From the sequence record NC_134264.1: DNA of 64,000 bases. One strand, written 5' to 3'. The DNA is from Escherichia phage Lindwurm. Both the position numbers and the translations under genes were made by a program. The notes beneath the pieces were generated by a model. The model did no database searches. It was not told the DNA's origin and saw only the letters and a list, made by a program, of their open reading frames with translations. How positions within the stretch are numbered: position 1 is the stretch's first letter; every line of letters begins with the position of its first letter. Of this stretch, positions 7,545 through 60,778 are shown piece by piece.

Positions 7545-9875
7545 ATGAGCCATCGCATTGAAAAAGTAATTAAACGTGACGGTACTGTAGAAGACTTTGC
7601 TCCTGAAAAACTCAATGGTTGGGCAGAGTATGGTTGCAAAACAGTTGATGTAAGTTGGTCAGCCATTACTATGGCTGCTCAAAAAACTCTGCCTAAAGGG
7701 GTTGTAGATTCCGACACTCTGATGGATGCATTAATTAAAGCTGCTGAAAGTCTTATCAAAGATAACCCAGCATACGATGTACCAGCAAAGGAATTACGTC
7801 TTGCGCAAATGCGTAAACGCCTTTATGACTCTTTCGAACCACCTTCTCTACGCTTCTTCCATGACCATATGGTTAGCGTAGGTGCATGGGAAGACATGAG
7901 TGCATGGATTACAGATGAGCAATTTGAAGCTCTGAATCAGGTTATCGACCATGATCGTGACCGTCTTTTTACTAGTGGTGGACTGAAGCAGTTCTTTGAT
8001 AAGTATTCCCGTCGTAACATAGCCACTGGTGAAATTTACGAAACTCCGCAGTTTGCCTACATGGGTATGGCAATGGCGATGCTATCTCAACCTAACTGGA
8101 CAATTCTAGATGCAATCGATCTCTACAACGCAATGTCACTCCACAAAATCAACGTTCCTACGCCGCCACTGGTTGGTCTGCGCTCTAGTGACCGTGGATT
8201 TGCTAGTTGCTGCCTCGTGGATTCCACTGACACGTTGGATTCAATCGACACCGCCGAGCACATCGTCTTCAAAATGGTCGCAGCCAGAGCGGGAATCGGG
8301 TATCATCTTGAAAGCCGATCAATTGCTGATCCGGTGCGAAATGGGGCATTCCCGCATTCCGGAAAACTGCCATATTATCGACACATTGACCGCTCAGTAA
8401 AGGCCAATACTCAGCAAACTCGTGGTGGTTCTGCTACAGTGTCTTATCCATACTTCGACCCTGAAATCATTCAATTGATGCAGGTTAAGCAACAACGTGC
8501 TACAGATGAGAATAAAATCGATAAGATGGATTATTCTCTGAGCTTTAACAATCTTTTGTTAAAACGTTATCTTAAAAACGAAGATATTACGCTAATGTCA
8601 TACTTCTATGCTCCAGAAGTTCATGAAGCGTTTTATAGTGATGACGAGGCTAAATTTGAAGAAATCTACGTGGCAGCGGAGAAACGTGTGGCATCTCTTA
8701 CAAAGATCGACCACGAAGGAAGAACAGTTCCTGCAGCTCCTAAAGTCTCTGCAAAAGAAATCCTAGATACTTGGCTACGTATCCGAATGGAAACAGGACG
8801 TATGTATGCTCATCACATCGGGGAATCTAACCGTCACGGTAACTTCCTTGATCCGATCCGTATGACAAACCTTTGTGTTGAAATTACTCAGCCTACACGC
8901 CCGTTCCATCATATCACGGAACTGTATAAGACAAAAGAGCAGCTTGATCAAATGAAGCCGGAGGATATCGGTGAAGTATCTCTGTGTAACTTAGGTGGTG
9001 TTGTACTTGGACGCATGGAATCTCTGGCTGAGTGGGAAAAAACTTGCTACATCCTTCTGAAATTCGTTGATACAATTATTGAAATTCAGGATTATCCATT
9101 CCCAACTATGGAGTATACGGCTAAGAAACGTCGTAATGTTGGTATTGGCCTGATGAACGCAGCAGGTGCAATGGCAGCAGAAGGTCTGGCTTACGAAGGT
9201 ATTGAAGCTCGTAACTGGATCCACCGTGAGGCTGAAAAACTGTCTTACTTCCTGCATAAAGCCTCTGTACGCCTAGCTAAAGAACAGGGCGCATGTGAGT
9301 GGTTTGATCGTACTAAACCGTCTAAAGGAATTCTGGTAATCGACACGTACAAGAAAACTGTTGATGAACTGGTATCCGTAGGTCTAGAAATGGATTGGGA
9401 GTCTCTGCGTGCAGATATTCTGAAATATGGTATGCGTAACTCTGTTCTGACTGCTCAGATGCCAGGAGAAAGTTCTTCTGTTCTGTTAGGTGTTACTAAC
9501 TCTATCGAACCACCTCGTAAGATTGTATCTATCAAGGGTAGTGCAGTAAATAAAGTAATTGCAATTGCTCCGGGTGCAACCGATTGGGAAACGTTAATGA
9601 GCTATAAACTGGCTTATGATGTAGATCGTATCGAGTGGATCAAGTGGGTAGCAACTATGCAGAAATTCTTCAGTCAGTCTATCAGTACGAATATGTATTA
9701 TGACTACACCAAGTTTGAGAATGAAATCATTCCTGGCCCAGTAGTAGTTCGTGATTTCATGACTGCTGTTAAGTATGGGTGGAAAACTTGGTATTATGCT
9801 AACTTCAATACCGCAAATGGTGGAGGTGCTGGAGAAGAAGCAGCCGGTTGTGCATCCGGTGGTTGTACTATTTAA
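7545..9875 (+). CDS. nrdA: ribonucleoside-diphosphate reductase alpha subunit
   Basis: ATP-cone start MSHRIEKVIKRDG; NLCVEI active-site block; ~776 aa; RBS AAAGGAAAG. Confidence 0.9.
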   Translation: MSHRIEKVIKRDGTVEDFAPEKLNGWAEYGCKTVDVSWSAITMAAQKTLPKGVVDSDTLMDALIKAAESLIKDNPAYDVPAKELRLAQMRKRLYDSFEPPSLRFFHDHMVSVGAWEDMSAWITDEQFEALNQVIDHDRDRLFTSGGLKQFFDKYSRRNIATGEIYETPQFAYMGMAMAMLSQPNWTILDAIDLYNAMSLHKINVPTPPLVGLRSSDRGFASCCLVDSTDTLDSIDTAEHIVFKMVAARAGIGYHLESRSIADPVRNGAFPHSGKLPYYRHIDRSVKANTQQTRGGSATVSYPYFDPEIIQLMQVKQQRATDENKIDKMDYSLSFNNLLLKRYLKNEDITLMSYFYAPEVHEAFYSDDEAKFEEIYVAAEKRVASLTKIDHEGRTVPAAPKVSAKEILDTWLRIRMETGRMYAHHIGESNRHGNFLDPIRMTNLCVEITQPTRPFHHITELYKTKEQLDQMKPEDIGEVSLCNLGGVVLGRMESLAEWEKTCYILLKFVDTIIEIQDYPFPTMEYTAKKRRNVGIGLMNAAGAMAAEGLAYEGIEARNWIHREAEKLSYFLHKASVRLAKEQGACEWFDRTKPSKGILVIDTYKKTVDELVSVGLEMDWESLRADILKYGMRNSVLTAQMPGESSSVLLGVTNSIEPPRKIVSIKGSAVNKVIAIAPGATDWETLMSYKLAYDVDRIEWIKWVATMQKFFSQSISTNMYYDYTKFENEIIPGPVVVRDFMTAVKYGWKTWYYANFNTANGGGAGEEAAGCASGGCTI

Positions 9876-9883
9876 TAAAAACA

Positions 9884-9910
9884 AGGAGATCTTCGGGTCT
9901 CCTTTTTCTT
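9884..9910 (+). terminator. rho-independent terminator
   Basis: GGAGATC-TTCG-GGTCTCC hairpin plus TTTTTCT. Confidence 0.65.
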
Positions 9911-9921
9911 TGAAATTTTAC

Positions 9922-9950
9922 TTGCTAATCGCTACCAGATTTGCTATAAT
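9922..9950 (+). promoter_or_regulatory. T5-type early promoter upstream of nrdB
   Basis: TTGCTA-17 bp-TATAAT. Confidence 0.6.
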
Positions 9951-9981
9951 ATTCCTGAAATAGTGAGAAAGAGGAAAATCA

Positions 9982-11127
9982 ATGACTACTTTACTAAACC
10001 TGAATTGGGATCATACTAACGCTGACCTTTTCCTGGGAGATTCTCTCGGTATCGCAGATTATGTACGTGTAGCACATCCAGAACTAGAGCGTCTGGCACT
10101 TCTGCAACGCTCTCAATTTTGGACTGAAACTGAAATCAGTCTGGAAGCAGATAAGAAACAATGGCCTAATCTCCCACGGGAAATTCAGGAAATTACACTC
10201 CTGAACTTAGCCTGGCAGACTCAAACAGATTCCTTTATCAGTCGTGCTCCTGAAGCAGCTATTATGCCGCTTGTAAGTCGTCCAGAATTGGAAGGTATGC
10301 TCAAGCAGTGGAGCTACTTCGAAGATCTGCATAGTCGTGCTTATAGCAATATTATTCGTAATGTGCTAACTGATCCAGCAGAATTTATTGATTCTGTAAC
10401 CAAAAACCAAGAAGCATTCGCACGCATCGCTGATTCTGTTGAACTATTCGATGAACTGTACCAGTTAGGTCAGTATTTCATCGCAGTACGCGATCATCGT
10501 GGCGACAATACATATCCAGAAACTGAGTTCCCTGAAGTTAAACGTGAAACTCAGGCTAAGCTATTAGATGCTTACTTTGCGATCTACGGTCTGGAAGCAA
10601 TGCAGTTTTACGCATCCTTTGCATGTACCTTTGCACTAGCAGAGAACGATATTCTGCAAGGTATTGCTAAAAATCTGCAATTAATCGCTAAAGATGAAGC
10701 TCTGCACACTCAGATGTCCAAAGCAATCATCCAGATTATGTTCCAGCAGTTTGACAAAGATCTGGTGGATGAAGCAGTGGCTAAAGCACCAGCACAGCTC
10801 CTGAAAACTCTGAAAACTGAAATTGAATGGGGTCATTTCATTTTCAAAGGTCGTAGTCTGATTGGCTTGAATGCAGAACTTCTAGAAGAATATCTGTACT
10901 TTGTGGGGCGTAATGCGTTTATGCACATTGGTGTAGAATGGCCTAGTCATTTACCAGTAATCACCAAAAACCCTATTCCGTGGATCATGAACTGGTTGGA
11001 TACCACTTCTTTACAGCCTGCTCCACAAGAAATCCAGATTGGTGCAGCCTACCGTGTAGGTCAGGTAACTGAGACCTCTACGGATACTCTAAAAGATCTG
11101 GGCAATGAATTTGGAGATTTCTTATGA
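9982..11127 (+). CDS. nrdB: ribonucleoside-diphosphate reductase beta subunit
   Basis: 381 aa; EALHTQ-type di-iron ligand blocks. Confidence 0.85.
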   Translation: MTTLLNLNWDHTNADLFLGDSLGIADYVRVAHPELERLALLQRSQFWTETEISLEADKKQWPNLPREIQEITLLNLAWQTQTDSFISRAPEAAIMPLVSRPELEGMLKQWSYFEDLHSRAYSNIIRNVLTDPAEFIDSVTKNQEAFARIADSVELFDELYQLGQYFIAVRDHRGDNTYPETEFPEVKRETQAKLLDAYFAIYGLEAMQFYASFACTFALAENDILQGIAKNLQLIAKDEALHTQMSKAIIQIMFQQFDKDLVDEAVAKAPAQLLKTLKTEIEWGHFIFKGRSLIGLNAELLEEYLYFVGRNAFMHIGVEWPSHLPVITKNPIPWIMNWLDTTSLQPAPQEIQIGAAYRVGQVTETSTDTLKDLGNEFGDFL

Positions 11128-48696: not shown

Positions 48697-49427
48697 TGAA
48701 AGATTTGGCTGTAAAGTTTAAGAATATTCTAGCCCTCGCTAAGGGGGCTGATCATCGCTGTTTCTCTGATTTAACCACTGAAGAGAAACATGCAGTAATG
48801 TTTGTTTGCGAAATGTTCCCAGCTAGATGGGAGGGTGGTAAGATTAAGTATGATAACAAAGCAGCAAAAGCTGACCTTGCTTATTCTTACGTTGATATGA
48901 ATAAACTCCTCAAGTCTTTAGACCCCACTGCTAAAGGTCACATGGGAAACTATATTCATGTTATCATTGATGAACCTCTCCCGGCTTATAGAGAAACATC
49001 CGCTAGAGAAGCATTAGAAGCATATCCAGAACAATTATACATCCCACCTAAGAAATGTAAGTTCGATTATCTTCCGGCGTTAGCATTTGAAACTAGTATC
49101 ACGTTTGAAGATATTTATAGAACGATTGGAGCTGTAGTAGCACGGATTGCAGTGGCACATCATCGTGGCATAGAACTTACTACAGCGGAAGATTATATCC
49201 TATACGCTATCCATGATGAAAAGGACTCCTTCAAACGTCTAATGGATGCTCTAGGATTAGGCAGTCTCACTGCGCTTGTGCTTAACCAGGCTCCTAGAAC
49301 CAAGCGTTATGCAAAGGGATCTATTACTCTTGAAGAAACAGGATCTACATCTTCATTCCTTGCTACATATATTTATTTAGCATCTAAAGGAATCTATCTA
49401 AAGGCTAGAAAGAATGTCACTATATAA
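48696..49427 (+). CDS. hypothetical protein
   Basis: 243-aa ORF. Confidence 0.5.
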   Translation: MKDLAVKFKNILALAKGADHRCFSDLTTEEKHAVMFVCEMFPARWEGGKIKYDNKAAKADLAYSYVDMNKLLKSLDPTAKGHMGNYIHVIIDEPLPAYRETSAREALEAYPEQLYIPPKKCKFDYLPALAFETSITFEDIYRTIGAVVARIAVAHHRGIELTTAEDYILYAIHDEKDSFKRLMDALGLGSLTALVLNQAPRTKRYAKGSITLEETGSTSSFLATYIYLASKGIYLKARKNVTI

Positions 49428-49770
49428 AGTATATATTCTTGCGAACAGGGATCTGACAAAGATCCCTAAGAGAACAAAGATCGGTATTAGCATGAATCCA
49501 CATAATAGGATTCAAACTCTAAACTTAGATAAGATAGTCTATCGAGGTTTTGACGATTTATACGTATATGGGATCTATGAAACCCATAACCCTAGAGATC
49601 TAGAAGCCGCTGCTCATATCTACTTTAAGAAATACCGCTGTAATTTAAAGGGATTCGAAGGATGTACAGAGTTCTTTGATATTCACCCACAACTTGCAGA
49701 ACGATTCCTATTAAATACAGGAGCCAAAAAGATTTACGATCCCAATACCAATCTCGAAGGAGATGTATAA
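49414..49770 (+). CDS. T5orf172 / GIY-YIG-like nuclease-domain protein
   Basis: KVYILANRDL...KIGISMNPHNR resembles the GIY-YIG-like T5orf172 signature. Confidence 0.5.
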   Translation: MSLYKVYILANRDLTKIPKRTKIGISMNPHNRIQTLNLDKIVYRGFDDLYVYGIYETHNPRDLEAAAHIYFKKYRCNLKGFEGCTEFFDIHPQLAERFLLNTGAKKIYDPNTNLEGDV

Positions 49771-49787
49771 ACATTAACAAAATCTTC

Positions 49788-49817
49788 TTGACAACTCATT
49801 GCGGCACATGTTATAAT
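49788..49817 (+). promoter_or_regulatory. consensus sigma70 promoter facing ORF-free repeat region
   Basis: TTGACA-18 bp-TATAAT; nothing coding for ~1.7 kb downstream. Confidence 0.55.
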
Positions 49818-50120
49818 AATCTCATAGATTAAAAACAACTCTTGTTTTGAACTCTAGGGGCGATGATTATTACACTTAGTATTACGTCTATACGTTGCGA
49901 CAGCATGAGTATAGATCTAATTACTAAGTCTTCAGTAATACTCACGCGCCCCACGAGTAAGCTCTCATGAAATGGGGCTACTTTACTTTTAATTTACCTT
50001 ATAATATTTAAAGACAATATCTGTGTTCAAGATGATACACCTGTTGCCACCCTCCATCTCTAGGATCACATACACTTTCCTAGAAACTCCAGAGTTCTCA
50101 CGAAATATCACACTTCTAGT

Positions 50121-50191
50121 GGGCGGTTCTCCTAAGTTTCTAGGAACATATACTAGGCGGTTAATACAGGGCGGTTATGGGGAGGGCGGTT
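50121..50191. repeat. four direct copies of GGCGGTT
   Basis: GGGCGGTT at 50121, 50156, 50169 and 50184. Confidence 0.7.
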
Positions 50192-50235
50192 ATTTCTAGG
50201 AGACATTTTTTGAAAACACTTTTCCAGAAATTACT

Positions 50236-50836
50236 GTCGGATTTGCACATTGTGTTTCTAGAAATTTATGGTCGGATTTGCACAATTGCCTAAGTTTTTA
50301 GGAACATATAATCTCCTGAAAATGGCAGCATTATTTCGGGCCGAAGGCCCATGATTGCCTGAGTTTTTAGAGCCACAAGAATTTTCACTTGTCAAGCTAT
50401 TTTGCCCCATTTTGCTAATAAAATTTTACTTTATCTCGCCCCAAGCCCAATTAACCTAAATTATCTCAACTCTTCCCCAAAAACGCAGCAAATCAGGCGT
50501 TGCACGCCACACATGCTGCCCCCCTAGCTTCTCCCCTAATTTTCTCTCGCTCTCTCAACTTCTCCCCAAATCCACACAACCCACACCCTCCAATCGAAGT
50601 CACAAAAATCTTGTCGGTTTCGCACATCTTAATCCTAGAAAAACCATGTCGGATTTGCACATACCCCACAGGATTCGAACGCAGTTCGAGATTGCTGGAG
50701 TTTTTGGGAAAACTCCTTGTCGGATTTGCACACTATAAAAATTTTTCGGGTCGGATTTGCACACTACCAAAAATTGTCGGATTCGCACATACACGCCCGC
50801 ACGTAACACCCGTGGAGCAATGTCGGTTTTGCACAA
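50236..50836 (+). repeat. eight dispersed copies of 14-mer GTCGG(A/T)TT(T/C)GCACA
   Basis: Copies at 50236, 50270, 50612, 50647, 50718, 50749, 50775 and 50821. Confidence 0.8.
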
Positions 50837-50838
50837 AA

Positions 50839-50860
50839 GCGCAGGGCAATTGCCCTGCGC
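50839..50860. repeat. perfect 22-bp palindrome GCGCAGGGCAATTGCCCTGCGC
   Basis: Read directly; self-complementary. Confidence 0.8.
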
Positions 50861-50867
50861 TAAATAC

Positions 50868-51040
50868 GAATGATAATAAGAATCAATCTCATTTAGAAAG
50901 TGGAATGAGAATGATAATAATTCGCATTTAGAAAATGAAATGAGAATCAATCTCATTTAAGAAGTGAAACGATTCTCATTTAGAAAGTGGAATGCAAATG
51001 ATAATGATTTGCATTTAAGAATGGAAGTGAGAAACACTGT
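50868..51040. repeat. array of AATGAGAAT / ATTCTCATT-type palindromic half-sites
   Basis: Repeated TCTCATTTAGAAAGTGGAATG and ATGCAAAT...ATTTGCAT units. Confidence 0.65.
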
Positions 51041-51048
51041 TATTTAAG

Positions 51049-51141
51049 TTATCCACAGACTTATTAACAGCACGATTTGACTTGACAAAATCCTAGCCAT
51101 TTTGAGGCGTTATCAACAGACTTATCCACAGCTTATCCTAC
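51049..51141 (+). promoter_or_regulatory. DnaA-box cluster
   Basis: Perfect TTATCCACA at 51049 and 51122; 8/9 TTATCAACA at 51110; 7/9 at 51133. Confidence 0.65.
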
Positions 51142-51158
51142 TGTATAAATATACAGTA
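51139..51158. promoter_or_regulatory. LexA (SOS) box-like palindrome
   Basis: TACTGTATAAATATACAGTA, 19/20 to consensus TACTGTATATATATACAGTA. Confidence 0.6.
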
Positions 51159-51348
51159 GTCCTATGTAGTGAATAATTCTAATATAGCGTTAAAACGTCC
51201 TAGATCGCATTCTAACGCGTTTAATTTTGGTGGGGATACTAAAACAAGGGCAAAATTGGAGGAGGCTTGAAAATTAGTTAGCCCGCTAACGATCACACAA
51301 GGCGACACGTAACACCCTAACCATTAGCAGGCTAACCATCGCGGGCGC

Positions 51349-51369
51349 GGTTAAATGAGAATGATTCTC
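51349..51369. repeat. 21-bp palindrome AAATGAGAAT-G-ATTCTCATTT
   Basis: Perfect 10-bp arms; same half-site family as the 50868-51040 array. Confidence 0.7.
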
Positions 51370-51524
51370 ATTTGAGAGTTGGGGGCACTTCCTGATAGTT
51401 GCGCCCCGTGATTATTATAGTAGTGGGCAACCGTTACGCTTTGCCCACTCCCGCCACTCATCTTGATGCCTAGACTTGCGACGGCGTACTAAAAACCGCT
51501 TGTACCAGTGATTAAACCATCGTT

Positions 51525-51728
51525 TCATAAACCCTCCTCCGGTAGTCGATGCGTGATTTTTTCCTCTTCCCCGTAGGAATCCACCAAATGCTGATAATAA
51601 CCATCGTGATCATAAATCACTTTATCATACTCGCCACGCTCGACCGCTCGCCGATTCTCCGGCGTATCAGGCACGTAAAAAACGTCAACCATTGTACTAG
51701 TTTTGGTCACAACAATTTTATTGCTCAT
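51525..51728 (-). CDS. hypothetical protein
   Basis: 67-aa ORF, last gene of minus-strand operon. Confidence 0.45.
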   Translation of the reverse strand: MSNKIVVTKTSTMVDVFYVPDTPENRRAVERGEYDKVIYDHDGYYQHLVDSYGEEEKITHRLPEEGL

Positions 51729-55023: not shown

Positions 55024-55043
55024 CCCTGTATATTTATACAGTA
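55024..55043. promoter_or_regulatory. LexA (SOS) box-like palindrome
   Basis: CCCTGTATATTTATACAGTA fits CTGT-N8-ACAG with AT-rich spacer. Confidence 0.55.
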
Positions 55044-55051
55044 GGATAACC

Positions 55052-55133
55052 TGTGGATAAGTCTGTGTAAAAGTCCTTATATTGCCGCCTATCGTGTCAA
55101 GTTATTTTGTGCTGTGGATAACATTGTGGATAA
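55052..55133 (-). promoter_or_regulatory. DnaA-box cluster
   Basis: Three perfect TGTGGATAA boxes at 55052, 55113 and 55125. Confidence 0.65.
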
Positions 55134-55174
55134 CTTAAATGATAGTGGTTCTCACTTAGGCCGATAGTTTCTTA

Positions 55175-59676: not shown

Positions 59677-60411
59677 ATGAATCAAGTTAAAACGAATATT
59701 ACCCGTAATTTCCCGCATATTTCCCGCGTCATGATTTGGGATCTGGACGGCACTATCATTAATTCTTTCCATCGTGTAGCGCCTTGCTTTGATAGCGAGG
59801 GCAATTTAGATTTAAATAAGTATAAAAATGAGGCTTGCAAACATCATTTAATAATGCAAGATACCTTATTGCCATTAGTTGAATATATGCGCCAGTGCAT
59901 GAATGATGCAAATACTTTAAACGTTATTTGTACCGCTCGACTGATGAGCAAGTCAGACTATTATTTCTTGCGCAAACAAGGCTTGCGCGGTCGTGATAAA
60001 AGCAATATCCGTGTATTTTCCCGCGATACACTACACAAGTATTTTGAGGCTGATAAAGTTAGCGAGATATACCACAGCAAAGACGCAGTATACAAATCTT
60101 ATTATTTTGAATTATTTAAACAGCTATATCCGAACGCTGATTTCACAATGATTGATGATCATAAAGGTGTGCTATCAGCGGCGGCGTCATACGGATTTAA
60201 AACGCTGGACGCACAAGCCGTTAACGATATTCTATCAATCGGCGTGGCATTGATAGGCGGAACCTTTATTGATGAATCTCTCGATGATGATAATGATTAT
60301 CAGTTCCTAGCTGACCGATTGAAATTATGTTGGGAAAGTATGACCGAGGAAGAACGCGCAGAATATAGTTGCAGCCCTCAACAATATATTGAGAAATTAA
60401 AAGTTGCGTAA
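59677..60411 (+). CDS. dmp: HAD-family 5'-deoxynucleotidase (Dmp-like)
   Basis: 244 aa from ATG 59677; WDLDGTII HAD motif; RBS context AATCCCTTTAATGGAG shared with A1. Confidence 0.6.
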   Translation: MNQVKTNITRNFPHISRVMIWDLDGTIINSFHRVAPCFDSEGNLDLNKYKNEACKHHLIMQDTLLPLVEYMRQCMNDANTLNVICTARLMSKSDYYFLRKQGLRGRDKSNIRVFSRDTLHKYFEADKVSEIYHSKDAVYKSYYFELFKQLYPNADFTMIDDHKGVLSAAASYGFKTLDAQAVNDILSIGVALIGGTFIDESLDDDNDYQFLADRLKLCWESMTEEERAEYSCSPQQYIEKLKVA

Positions 60412-60568
60412 TAATTAAAGTTGAAATAGTCACGGTGTGTAATGATAACATGCCGTGACTATTAGCTTGCTAAGTACCGGGCGGTAATGAGACTCATTCT
60501 CATCTGGGAGGCCACTGGACACACCTCCATGTGTAATCTTATGAAATTTGGCAAAAGTCAAATTAGCG

Positions 60569-60778
60569 CTATTTACGGACTGACTGCCTGAGAATGGACT
60601 GCCATAGAGGGTCAGTCTTAACAAGATTATTGATGTACTCAATAGCTTCATCAAATCTCATAAATCCTTCTGGGATTTCCGAAGACTTAGGAAAAACTGA
60701 GAGCATCTCCTGGGTGAGACCTCTCTTTTCAATTTCTTCCTTAGTTAATTTAAACTGCTCATAGTTATTCTTCACCAC
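60569..60778 (-). CDS. hypothetical protein
   Basis: 69-aa ORF. Confidence 0.4.
   Translation of the reverse strand: MVKNNYEQFKLTKEEIEKRGLTQEMLSVFPKSSEIPEGFMRFDEAIEYINNLVKTDPLWQSILRQSVRK

What the first reader, a model, noticed from the sequence alone, without database searches (positions are those of the whole stretch)
49788..51500. 1.7 kb ORF-free repeat array downstream of a consensus promoter
A TTGACA-18-TATAAT promoter points into a region with no credible ORF. It holds four GGCGGTT repeats, eight copies of the 14-mer GTCGG(A/T)TT(T/C)GCACA, a perfect 22-bp palindrome, a pyrimidine-rich strand-asymmetric stretch (50440-50600) and an array of AATGAGAAT/ATTCTCATT palindromic half-sites ending in a perfect 21-bp palindrome. 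This resembles the repeat-rich injection-stop region at the inner edge of the T5 first-step-transfer DNA, but the specific repeat families may be protein-binding arrays.
Basis: partly seen in the sequence, partly recalled or inferred. Interest (0 to 1): 0.65.

Follow-up and report, generated by a model that had tools for sequence, protein, structure and literature searches.

The report
T5-type injection-stop repeat region
This gene-free, repeat-packed stretch is the already-described "injection stop signal" region at the inner edge of the terminal repeat of a T5-like phage. Two parts look undescribed in the papers and T5 records I could check: a conserved promoter driving a long-hairpin RNA, and a block of iron-regulator (Fur)-like binding sites at the point where DNA entry pauses.

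Summary
The window is a T5-like phage read in reverse of the T5 map. Region 49788-51500 is the orthologue of T5 "Repeat Region 3", which holds the injection stop signal (iss).

- **Feature mapping.** The eight 14-mers are T5 DRD1-8. The 24-bp palindrome is palJ, at the major 7.9% nick. The AATGAGAAT array is DRC1-4 with palE-I. The C-rich stretch holds DRA2/3.
Paired DnaA boxes lie at 51049-51130. The terminal-repeat boundary, placed by homology at about 50370, splits the region.
- **Verdict on the main finding.** Interpretation supported; the region is already known. How injection stops is still unknown.

Two parts are absent from the three T5 records and from the papers I could read.

- **Hairpin RNA cassette.** The consensus promoter is conserved from coliphages to Klebsiella, Erwinia and Vibrio T5-like phages. 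It is always followed by a roughly 100-nt hairpin whose sequence differs completely between lineages but whose fold is kept (z -5 to -7.5).
- **Fur-like sites.** The DRC palindromes match the Fur-box consensus as well as genuine E. coli Fur operators do, with the typical 6-bp phasing. They sit at the reported stop point.

Both are sequence-level leads. Neither binding nor expression has been shown.

The parts
49788..49817 (+). Sigma-70 promoter: -35 TTGACA, 18-nt spacer, TGn-TATAAT extended -10. It points toward the terminal repeat and lies about 580 bp outside it.
   Evidence: It scores 12/12. The hexamers and the TG are conserved while the spacer varies in IMG/VR T5-like loci. The same holds in Klebsiella, Vibrio and Erwinia T5-like phages. 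It is not annotated in three T5 records.
49824..49995 (+). Predicted structured RNA of about 165 nt. It has a small 5' hairpin, a long imperfect hairpin (49857-49952), a 3' terminator-like hairpin (49960-49979) and a U-rich tail.
   Evidence: MFE is -55 kcal/mol, z = -6.9. At least 7 classes of unrelated sequence keep the same fold, z -5 to -7.5. The T5 class shows 3 compensatory and 3 wobble changes against 1 break. A terminator-like site follows. There is no Rfam family and no conserved small ORF.
50028..50050 (.). Conserved block TTCAAGATGATACACCTGTTGCC, role unknown.
   Evidence: It is nearly invariant in the alignment of T5-like loci.
50122..50191 (+). Four GGCGGTT repeats (three in T5). 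They lie outside the terminal repeat.
   Evidence: T5 copies are at NC_005859 10398-10434. They also occur in the Klebsiella and Erwinia phages. A related GGGCGGT motif lies about 45 bp inside the left terminus.
50235..50284 (+). Two 14-mer iterons, equivalent to T5 DRD8 and DRD7, in unique DNA just outside the terminal repeat.
50163..50437 (.). The most conserved block of the region. It contains the palindrome GGGCCGAAGGCCC and the inferred inner boundary of the terminal repeat at about 50370, which is the right-end cut site of the genome.
   Evidence: Conservation is 0.87-1.0 across 17 loci. The T5 left-terminal-repeat end (10219) and the MM-1 end (10407) both map to 50370.
50440..50600 (+). 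C-rich, strand-asymmetric stretch holding T5 direct repeats DRA2 and DRA3.
   Evidence: GC skew is -0.63. DRA2/3 map to 50445-50483. This is among the less conserved parts of the repeat region: two 25-nt bins fall to about 0.6 while most of the stretch stays at 0.75-0.92.
50612..50835 (+). Six 14-mer iterons, equivalent to T5 DRD6 to DRD1.
   Evidence: The iteron sequence differs in Vibrio phages while its position is kept.
50838..50861 (.). Perfect 24-bp palindrome, equivalent to T5 palJ. It carries the site of the T5 major single-strand nick at 7.9%.
   Evidence: I15. The nick annotated at T5 9748/9749 and at AY587007 9661-9668 maps to 50838-50846.
50868..51020 (.). Array of 19-bp and 25-bp AT-rich palindromes, equivalent to T5 DRC1-4, palE-I and DRE. 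They are Fur-box-like. The published first-step-transfer shear point (AY587007 9618) maps to about 50887, inside this array.
   Evidence: - Mapping.
- Match to the Fur consensus is 13-15/19, with hits offset by 6 bp. Genuine fhuA, fepA-fes, fepD-entS and fepB-entC operators score 13-16/19.
- In 1000 composition-preserving shuffles, P(max >= 15) = 0.007.
- The two classes of E. coli genome matches inspected lie upstream of iroN and iroB.
- Shear point: Davison 2020.
51025..51156 (.). IRC'-spacer-IRD' with four DnaA-type boxes in two pairs, each pair separated by 3 bp. Consensus TTATCCACA is at 51049 and 51122. Variants TTATTAACA and TTATCAACA are at 51061 and 51110. palD lies at 51139-51158.
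   Evidence: It forms a 132-nt inverted repeat with 55026-55157 (79% complementary). Published DnaA-box description.
51338..51377 (.). GGGCGCGGTT followed by the perfect 21-bp palindrome AAATGAGAATGATTCTCATTT. It lies in a 116-bp segment absent from T5 but present in MM-1 and others.
   Evidence: alignment columns 333-448. It scores 14/19 against the Fur consensus. A similar unit lies at 60466-60510 near the left terminus.
51415..51728 (-). Last pre-early genes of the terminal repeat (37-aa and 67-aa ORFs). They converge on the repeat region.
   Evidence: ORFs. phrog_6973 matches at E = 3e-42. The 67-aa ORF aligns with T5.017.

Best explanation
Region 49788-51500 is the T5-type 'Repeat Region 3': the untranslated cis-acting region that spans the inner end of the long terminal repeat and contains the injection stop signal.

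**Orientation.** The window reads in reverse of the T5 map, so DNA enters the cell from the right of the window (left terminus at about 60521) toward the left.

**Proposed sequence of events.**
1. The pre-early genes enter first.
2. Transfer pauses when the DnaA-box inverted repeat (51025-51156) and the adjacent palindrome array (50868-51020) reach the cell. The T5 shear point maps to about 50887.
3. The nick/palJ site, the eight iterons, the repeat boundary (about 50370), the GGCGGTT repeats and the promoter-hairpin cassette stay in the tail or capsid until the A1 and A2 proteins release the block.

**Most likely mechanism.** The stop is a nucleoprotein block built by abundant host DNA-binding proteins on these arrays. 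DnaA has been proposed in the literature. Fur is a new candidate for the palindromes. The block may be looped to the partner inverted repeat 3.9 kb away.

**Other roles inferred.**
- The highly conserved block around 50370 is the site where the genome end is cut at packaging.
- The consensus promoter is the first sigma-70 promoter on second-step DNA. It makes a hairpin RNA of about 165 nt, of unknown role, transcribed toward the repeat.

**Shown versus inferred.** Orthology, repeat anatomy, conservation, Fur- and DnaA-box similarity and the RNA fold are shown here. The pause point and the A1/A2 dependence come from the T5 literature. Protein binding, RNA expression and the stop mechanism itself are inferred.
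For: - **Relatedness.** The region is 87-92% identical over most of its length to many T5-like phages.
- **Annotated equivalents.** It aligns to T5 and MM-1. T5 annotates iss, the repeat end and the nick in the aligned segment. The named T5 repeats map one-to-one.
- **Literature.** The description and the DnaA model are in Davison 2020. Two later papers say the mechanism and the role of the repeats remain untested.
- **Partner repeat.** A 132-nt inverted repeat lies 3.9 kb away.
- **Conservation.** The non-coding region is more conserved than the flanking genes.
- **Architecture across hosts.** It is kept in Klebsiella, Erwinia and Vibrio relatives.
- **Fur-like quality and phasing.**, with reference PMC2189734. 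The inspected E. coli matches lie at the iroN and iroB promoters.
- **Promoter and hairpin.**
Against: - No experiment defines which element stops DNA. T5 ejects its whole genome in vitro with FhuA alone (cited).
- A protein complex inside the cell does not obviously stop DNA that is being pushed in.
- The repeat boundary in this phage is placed by homology only, because the assembly carries a single collapsed copy of the repeat.
- Fur-likeness is not universal. Vibrio phage D138 has a different AT-rich repeat in that position.
- The palindromes are copies of one unit, so the statistics overstate independence.
- Strand evidence for an RNA is modest: 80 G-U pairs on the + strand against 62 on the - strand.
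- The 3' terminator is weak.
Confidence: 0.9

Rival explanations
1. The stop signal acts from the phage side. A structure on the DNA still in the virion cannot pass the portal or tail until A1/A2 act. Candidates are a packaged protein bound to the iterons or GGCGGTT repeats, or a cruciform formed by the long inverted repeat at 49857-49952. On this view the palindromes and DnaA boxes serve another purpose.
For: - The inverted repeat is conserved as a structure while its sequence is free. That fits a shape-based DNA element as well as it fits an RNA.
- G-U counts give little strand preference.
- The iterons and the best-conserved block lie just beyond the shear point.
- Tail length would put roughly 0.5-0.75 kb of DNA between cell and capsid. 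This figure is from my own recollection of T5 dimensions and was not checked.
Against: - A conserved consensus promoter and a terminator-like hairpin flank the inverted repeat, which argues for transcription.
- The + strand folds better in all 17 variants.
- Whole-genome ejection occurs in vitro with the receptor alone.
Confidence: 0.15
2. The region is mainly a packaging or genome-end processing site. The conserved block at the repeat boundary, the GGCGGTT repeats and the iterons would be recognition sites for terminase or the nicking enzyme. The inward-pointing promoter and inverted repeat would help duplicate the terminal repeat, loosely as proposed for T7 concatemer junctions. This is compatible with a separate injection-stop role for the inner part.
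For: - The highest conservation straddles the boundary.
- A GGGCGGT motif plus a related palindrome also lies about 45 bp inside the left terminus.
- The major nick maps to palJ.
- The T7 parallel (repeat arrays, a promoter and a hairpin near the terminal repeat) is from my own knowledge and was not tested here.
Against: - No terminase-binding data exist.
- The promoter direction relative to packaging differs from T7.
- The iterons lie on both sides of the boundary, and most are well inside the repeat.
Confidence: 0.3
3. The region is a replication origin of the iteron and DnaA-box type, with the promoter providing transcriptional activation or a primer RNA.
For: DnaA boxes, same-orientation iterons, AT-rich repeats and an adjacent strong promoter are all present. 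Davison notes the resemblance to oriC.
Against: - Electron-microscopy studies placed T5 origins near the middle of the genome, and the replication genes are not on first-step DNA.
- No initiator gene lies next to the region. The neighbouring ORF is a truncated homing endonuclease.
- The local skew change coincides with the switch in gene orientation.
Confidence: 0.08
4. The region encodes small proteins, as some automated annotations of relatives suggest with 30-50-aa 'hypothetical proteins'.
For: Record PV577657 annotates about 13 tiny CDSs across the region. A 35-aa ATG ORF overlaps the hairpin.
Against: - No frame is conserved between relatives.
- There are no PHROG hits.
- Curated T5 records annotate no gene here.
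- Open frames on the + strand follow from the scarcity of stop codons in C-rich sequence.
Confidence: 0.03

Closest known systems
Phage T5 injection stop signal, 'Repeat Region 3' (T5 records NC_005859 and AY587007; Davison 2020, bioRxiv 10.1101/866236)
   Same: It is orthologous and collinear, with the same position across the inner end of the terminal repeat. It has the same DRD iterons, the palJ/nick site, the DRC palindromes, IRD'-spacer-IRC' with paired DnaA boxes, the partner inverted repeat in Repeat Region 2, and DRA in the C-rich stretch.
   Different: - It has 8 rather than 9 DRD copies.
- A 116-bp segment carrying a perfect 21-bp palindrome replaces T5 palC and its surroundings.
- There are four rather than three GGCGGTT repeats.
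- The hairpin downstream of the promoter belongs to a different sequence class.
E. coli Fur operator clusters (fhuA, fepA-fes, fepD-entS, fepB-entC, iroN)
   Same: Matches to GATAATGATAATCATTATC reach 13-16/19. Overlapping sites are offset by exactly 6 bp, and the sites occur in clusters. The iroN upstream sequence was one of the few matches found in 5,426 E. coli genomes.
   Different: The array does not overlap a demonstrated promoter. It is a long array of 19-bp and 25-bp palindromes with a G in place of the consensus T in the core (TGAGAAT). Binding by Fur is untested. It is absent from at least one Vibrio T5-like lineage.
oriC-type and plasmid iteron origins (DnaA boxes plus iterons)
   Same: It has paired high-affinity DnaA boxes, arrays of same-orientation short repeats and AT-rich DNA.
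   Different: There is no adjacent initiator gene and no evidence of initiation here. Published mapping puts T5 origins elsewhere.
T7/T3 concatemer-junction region (own knowledge, not tested)
   Same: It is a terminal direct repeat flanked by arrays of short repeats, with a promoter reading toward the repeat and an inverted repeat nearby.
   Different: The T5 repeat is 10 kb rather than 160 bp. The promoter is a host sigma-70 type, and its orientation relative to packaging differs. No sequence similarity was examined.

Membership tests
T5-type injection stop signal / Repeat Region 3 | Lies at the inner end of the long terminal repeat, between the last pre-early gene and the first early gene | tested here: met
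   The annotated repeat ends of T5 (10219) and MM-1 (10407) both map to window 50370. The left terminus maps to about 60521. Placement is by homology only, because the assembly has one copy of the repeat.
T5-type injection stop signal / Repeat Region 3 | Large untranslated region | tested here: met
T5-type injection stop signal / Repeat Region 3 | IRD'-spacer-IRC' of about 131 bp with DnaA boxes in pairs 3 bp apart, plus an inverted partner in Repeat Region 2 | tested here: met
   The boxes are at 51049/51061 and 51110/51122. The 132-nt inverted repeat pairs with 55026-55157.
T5-type injection stop signal / Repeat Region 3 | DRD iterons, DRC/DRE palindromes and palJ with the major nick site, in the T5 order | tested here: met
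   One-to-one mapping. The nick itself cannot be seen in sequence.
T5-type injection stop signal / Repeat Region 3 | DNA transfer pauses here at about 8% of the genome until A1 and A2 are made | not testable with these tools
   A1, A2 and dmp homologues are present in the repeat. The pause is known only from T5 and BF23 experiments.
Fur operator | Match to the 19-bp Fur consensus at the level of genuine operators | tested here: met
   The window scores 15, 15, 14, 14, 13, 13, 13 and T5 up to 16. Genuine operators score 13-16. Hits are enriched about 135-fold over the rest of the window.
Fur operator | Overlapping sites offset by 3 or 6 bases | tested here: met
   Hit pairs at array offsets 7/13, 48/54, 77/83 and 135/141. 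The property is described in PMC2189734.
Fur operator | Overlaps and represses a promoter | tested here: inconclusive
   Only 9/12 promoter-like matches occur inside the array.
Fur operator | Bound by Fe-Fur | not testable with these tools
   This needs a gel shift, a footprint or a Fur titration assay.
Small RNA gene | Conserved promoter and terminator flanking a structured segment | tested here: met
   The promoter is conserved across six lineages. The terminator-like hairpin is weak.
Small RNA gene | Structure supported beyond chance and by covariation | tested here: met
   z is -5 to -7.5 in every class. There are 3 compensatory pairs within the T5 class, but these come from one lineage split, and a DNA-level inverted repeat would give the same pattern.
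Small RNA gene | Belongs to a described RNA family | tested here: not met
   The Rfam 15 scan gave only a sub-threshold PrrF match elsewhere in the region.
Small RNA gene | Transcript detected | not testable with these tools
   No expression data are available. No paper describing it was found.
Iteron/DnaA replication origin | Adjacent initiator gene and evidence of initiation | tested here: not met
   The neighbour is a truncated homing endonuclease. The literature places T5 origins mid-genome.

The most novel reading that the evidence does not exclude
The palindrome array at the point where T5-type DNA entry pauses is a genuine Fur operator array next to the DnaA boxes. On this reading the host iron regulator, alone or with DnaA, takes part in or gates the two-step injection.

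Separately, the conserved promoter just outside the repeat makes a family-wide hairpin RNA, variable in sequence and constant in fold. It would be the first transcript of the second-step DNA, with a role in takeover, anti-defence or end processing.
Probability: 0.2. Interest if true: 0.8.

Novelty: already known. Interest (0 to 1): 0.4.

Why it matters
Why T5 DNA stops after 8% and how it restarts has been open since 1968. Papers from 2023 and 2026 still state that the role of these repeats is untested.

Re-identifying the region adds nothing by itself. The comparison does sharpen the question in three ways.

- **What is conserved.** The DnaA boxes and, in most lineages, Fur-like palindromes are kept across phages of E. 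coli, Salmonella, Klebsiella, Erwinia and one Vibrio lineage. The iterons change with the phage. That pattern points to host proteins for the former and a phage protein for the latter.
- **A cheap test.** First-step transfer can be compared in fur or dnaA hosts, or under iron chelation.
- **An unannotated element.** The promoter-hairpin cassette is conserved across the T5-like family and deserves an RNA-seq check.

Tried and rejected
- **Rfam scan.** It gave only a PrrF match at 26.6 bits against a threshold of 90. I treat this as chance.
- **PHROG scan of the two longest frames and frame conservation.** Coding is rejected.
- **Small ORF in the hairpin.** Start type, position and peptide are not conserved, and it is absent in Vibrio SJ1 and L030. 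I judge it unlikely.
- **Antisense target for the hairpin RNA within the 64 kb.** Nothing exceeded 13 nt.
- **Best Fur-like site in the window, 17/19 at 60283.** It lies inside the dmp gene and encodes DDDNDYQ, so it is a coding coincidence.
- **The 14-mer as a weak DnaA box.** ATTTGCACA matches 8/9, but the likeness is not kept in Vibrio SJ1 iterons. I record it only as an observation.
- **A2 protein as the binder of the palindromes.** The same palindromes occur in the unrelated Phapecoctavirus ukendt. The A2 search found homologues only in T5-sized genomes of 104-128 kb among the rows listed. This is weak evidence against A2.
- **Strand test by G-U counts.** The result was 80 against 62, which is not decisive.
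- **Davison 2015 review.** It could not be retrieved, so I cannot exclude that it mentions Fur or the promoter.
- **First fold-shuffle script.** It timed out and was rewritten.
Full report
**What is there.**

- The promoter is a perfect TTGACA, 18-nt spacer, TATAAT with a TG extended -10 at 49788-49817.
- The 14-mer GTCGGWTTYGCACA occurs eight times, all on the + strand and only in this region. Shuffles expect none.
- Four GGCGGTT copies lie within 70 bp.
- The palindrome is a perfect 24-mer at 50838-50861.
- GC skew reaches -0.63 at 50400-50599.
- AATGAGAAT-type half-sites cluster at 50869-51005 and form a perfect 21-bp palindrome at 51353-51373.
- No frame is credible. The longest frames have no PHROG match and are not kept in related phages.

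Two pairs of DnaA boxes lie at 51049-51130. Genes converge on the region from both sides.

**Identity.**

The region is 87-92% identical to several hundred Salmonella and Escherichia T5-like phages.

The window runs in reverse of the T5 map and comes from an assembly with a single collapsed copy of the terminal repeat. Reading left to right it contains:
- the early genes;
- this region;
- the repeat with A2, A1 and dmp;
- the left terminus at about 60521;
- the receptor-binding genes that normally lie at the other end of the genome.

T5 record NC_005859 annotates the following:
- an 'injection stop signal (iss)' at 9140-10149;
- the left repeat end at 10219;
- a major single-strand interruption at 9748/9749.

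In the alignment these map to window 51542-50440, 50370 and 50838/50839. The repeat end annotated independently in phage MM-1 maps to the same base.

T5 record AY587007 annotates every repeat family, and each maps one-to-one:

|---|---|---|
| Eight 14-mers | DRD1-8 (T5 has a ninth) | 50235-50284 and 50612-50835 |
| 24-bp palindrome | palJ, overlapping 'major nick 1, 7.9%' | 50838-50861 |
| AATGAGAAT array | DRC1-4 with palE-palI | 50868-51020 |
| C-rich stretch | contains DRA2 and DRA3 | 50440-50600 |
| DnaA-box segment | IRC'-spacer-IRD' | 51025-51156 |

- The DnaA-box segment forms a 132-nt inverted repeat with 55026-55157 in Repeat Region 2, as Davison describes.
- The 21-bp palindrome sits in a 116-bp segment that T5 lacks and MM-1 has.
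- Only 50370-51500 is inside the repeat. The promoter, the hairpin, the GGCGGTT repeats and two iterons lie in unique DNA.

**What is known about function.**

- Davison 2020 (10.1101/866236) calls this Repeat Region 3. He notes that it is better conserved than the neighbouring genes.
- He places the first-step-transfer shear point at about 9618, which is window about 50887, inside the palindrome array.
- He proposes that membrane-bound DnaA holds the DnaA boxes and stops the DNA. Of the palindrome-rich DRE/DRC cluster he writes that it is 'impossible to guess' the functions.
- A 2023 BF23 paper says experimental study of these sites is lacking. A 2026 paper says the mechanism remains poorly understood.

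The main finding is therefore a correct re-identification of a known but mechanistically unsolved region.

**Conservation.**

- Across 17 distinct loci, the non-coding segment 50163-51400 is conserved at 0.56-1.0 per 25-nt bin, and at 0.75 or more in most bins.
- The peak (0.87-1.0) is at 50163-50437, which straddles the repeat boundary.
- Flanking genes drop to 0.1-0.3 and the hairpin to 0.35-0.6.
- The loci were selected by an exact 22-mer at 50338-50359, which inflates the peak locally.

The same order of elements is found in:
- a Klebsiella T5-like phage;
- Erwinia phage KEY;
- Vibrio phage SJ1.

That order is: promoter, long hairpin, GGCGGTT repeats, iterons, boundary block, C-rich stretch, iterons, palindromes, DnaA boxes.

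- The iteron sequence changes with lineage. An example is TAGAATCCGCACTCACA in SJ1.
- The DnaA boxes stay at consensus.

**Lead 1: the promoter drives a conserved hairpin.**

- **Promoter.** The -35, the TG and the -10 are kept while the spacer varies. This also holds in the Klebsiella, Erwinia and Vibrio phages.
- **Fold.** Downstream there is always a small 5' hairpin, then a long imperfect hairpin of about 100-140 nt. In the E. coli and Salmonella T5-like loci a short hairpin with a U-rich tail follows.
- **Sequence classes.** The long hairpin falls into at least seven classes with no alignable sequence. Some classes share the outer stem but have a different interior. Every class folds far better than shuffles, with z from -5 to -7.5.
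- **Covariation.** Within the T5 class, the two subtypes differ by three compensatory pairs and three wobble changes against one break.
- **Strand.** The + strand is more stable than the - strand in all 17 variants, but G-U counts (80 against 62) give only modest strand evidence. A DNA-level inverted repeat is not excluded.
- **Negative checks.** There is no Rfam family, no conserved ORF and no antisense target in the window.
- **Prior description.** The three T5 records annotate nothing there. In T5 the cassette is on the minus strand of NC_005859, about 10645-10879. Literature searches found no description.
- **Timing.** Because it lies about 0.4-0.6 kb beyond the repeat, it is on the first DNA to enter in the second step. 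Its function is unknown.

**Lead 2: the palindromes look like Fur boxes.**

| Sequence scored against GATAATGATAATCATTATC | Matches out of 19 |
|---|---|
| Window array | 15, 15, 14, 14, 13, 13, 13 |
| T5 array | 16, 15, 15, 14, 13 |
| E. coli fhuA operator | 14 |
| E. coli fepA-fes operator | 13 |
| E. coli fepD-entS operator | 16 |
| E. coli fepB-entC operator | 15 |

- Hits come in pairs offset by exactly 6 bp. This is the hallmark of Fur site clusters (PMC2189734).
- Hits of 14/19 or better are about 135 times denser in the array than in the rest of the window.
- In 1000 composition-preserving shuffles of the array, P(max >= 15) is 0.007, and seven hits of 13 or better never occur. The copies are repeats of one unit, so they are not independent.
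- A blind search of the array against 5,426 E. coli genomes gave only weak matches (E = 6). The two classes inspected lie 92 bp upstream of iroN and upstream of iroB. Both are Fur-repressed siderophore genes; that regulation is from my own knowledge.
- Fur-like sites occur in the same position in Klebsiella, Erwinia and Vibrio SJ1 phages. They are absent from Vibrio D138, which has a different AT-rich repeat there.
- The same palindromes also occur in a non-coding region of the unrelated Phapecoctavirus ukendt. The search for the A2 DNA-binding protein returned only T5-sized genomes among the rows listed. This favours a host factor over a T5-specific protein.
- No paper in the library links Fur with T5-like phages. 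The 2015 Davison review could not be read.

**How it most likely works.**

I am confident (0.9) that this is the T5 iss / Repeat Region 3 orthologue.

On mechanism, my best guess is that host DNA-binding proteins assemble on the DnaA boxes and the adjacent palindromes as they enter, and hold the DNA until A1 and A2 act. I give this modest confidence.

The boundary block would serve genome-end cutting. The promoter-hairpin cassette would be an early transcription unit.

The rivals are a phage-side block (packaged protein or cruciform), a mainly packaging role, a replication origin, and small genes. They are weighed in the rival section of this report.

**Verdict.**

The region itself is already known. 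The two leads are sequence-level only, but they make an old question testable, so I set interest at 0.4.

Noticed in passing
window 49414-49770 (+): The last ORF before the promoter (118 aa) matches only the first 102 of 236 positions of a homing-endonuclease family (phrog_18411, E = 2e-49). It appears to be a truncated homing endonuclease. The gene in this position differs between T5-like phages.
   Followed up: partly
window 60380-60640: [quoted passage not shown] The window therefore comes from an assembly in which the 10-kb terminal repeat is collapsed to one copy and the genome is circularly joined.
   Followed up: partly
window 60466-60510 and 51338-51377: A unit of GGGCG(C)GGT followed by an AATGAGA...TCTCAT palindrome occurs about 45 bp inside the left terminus and again at the inner edge of the repeat region. 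The GGCGGTT motif also occurs four times just outside the repeat. These may be end-recognition sites.
   Followed up: no
window 55026-55157: This is the partner inverted repeat in Repeat Region 2. It carries four consensus DnaA boxes on the - strand (55052, 55064, 55113, 55125) and is 79% complementary to 51025-51156.
   Followed up: partly
L140 1465-1585 (Escherichia phage ukendt, MN850565): An unrelated 151-kb Phapecoctavirus carries a cluster of the same palindromes (for example AAATGAGAATGATTATCATTT, 16/19 to the Fur consensus) inside a 1.2-kb non-coding region.
   Followed up: partly
L144 4390-4620 (Vibrio phage D138): Between the iterons and the DnaA boxes, where other T5-like phages have Fur-like palindromes, this phage has four copies of a different AT-rich repeat (TATTATTGTAYTATTATA...).
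   Followed up: no
window 49818-49830: A 13-bp palindrome lies over the predicted transcription start and covaries between lineages: AATCTCATAGATT here and AACTCTATGAGTT in T5. It could be an operator or a 5' stem.
   Followed up: no
window 60283-60302: The best Fur-consensus match in the window (17/19, with a perfect TGATAATGATTATCA core) lies inside the dmp gene and encodes DDDNDYQ. It is probably a coding coincidence.
   Followed up: partly
window 50236-50835: The 14-mer iteron contains ATTTGCACA, one mismatch from the DnaA-box consensus TTWTNCACA. One copy (50827) matches exactly. The likeness is not kept in Vibrio SJ1 iterons.
   Followed up: partly
T5 records: The three T5 genome records place the end of the left terminal repeat differently. 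Two agree once a roughly 80-bp coordinate offset is allowed for (10219 and 10139). The st0 deletion-mutant record ends it at the nick (9749).
   Followed up: no
window 50832-50968 (-): There is a sub-threshold Rfam match to PrrF, a Fur-regulated Pseudomonas sRNA (26.6 bits, gathering score 90, E = 0.13), over the palindrome array. It is most likely chance.
   Followed up: no
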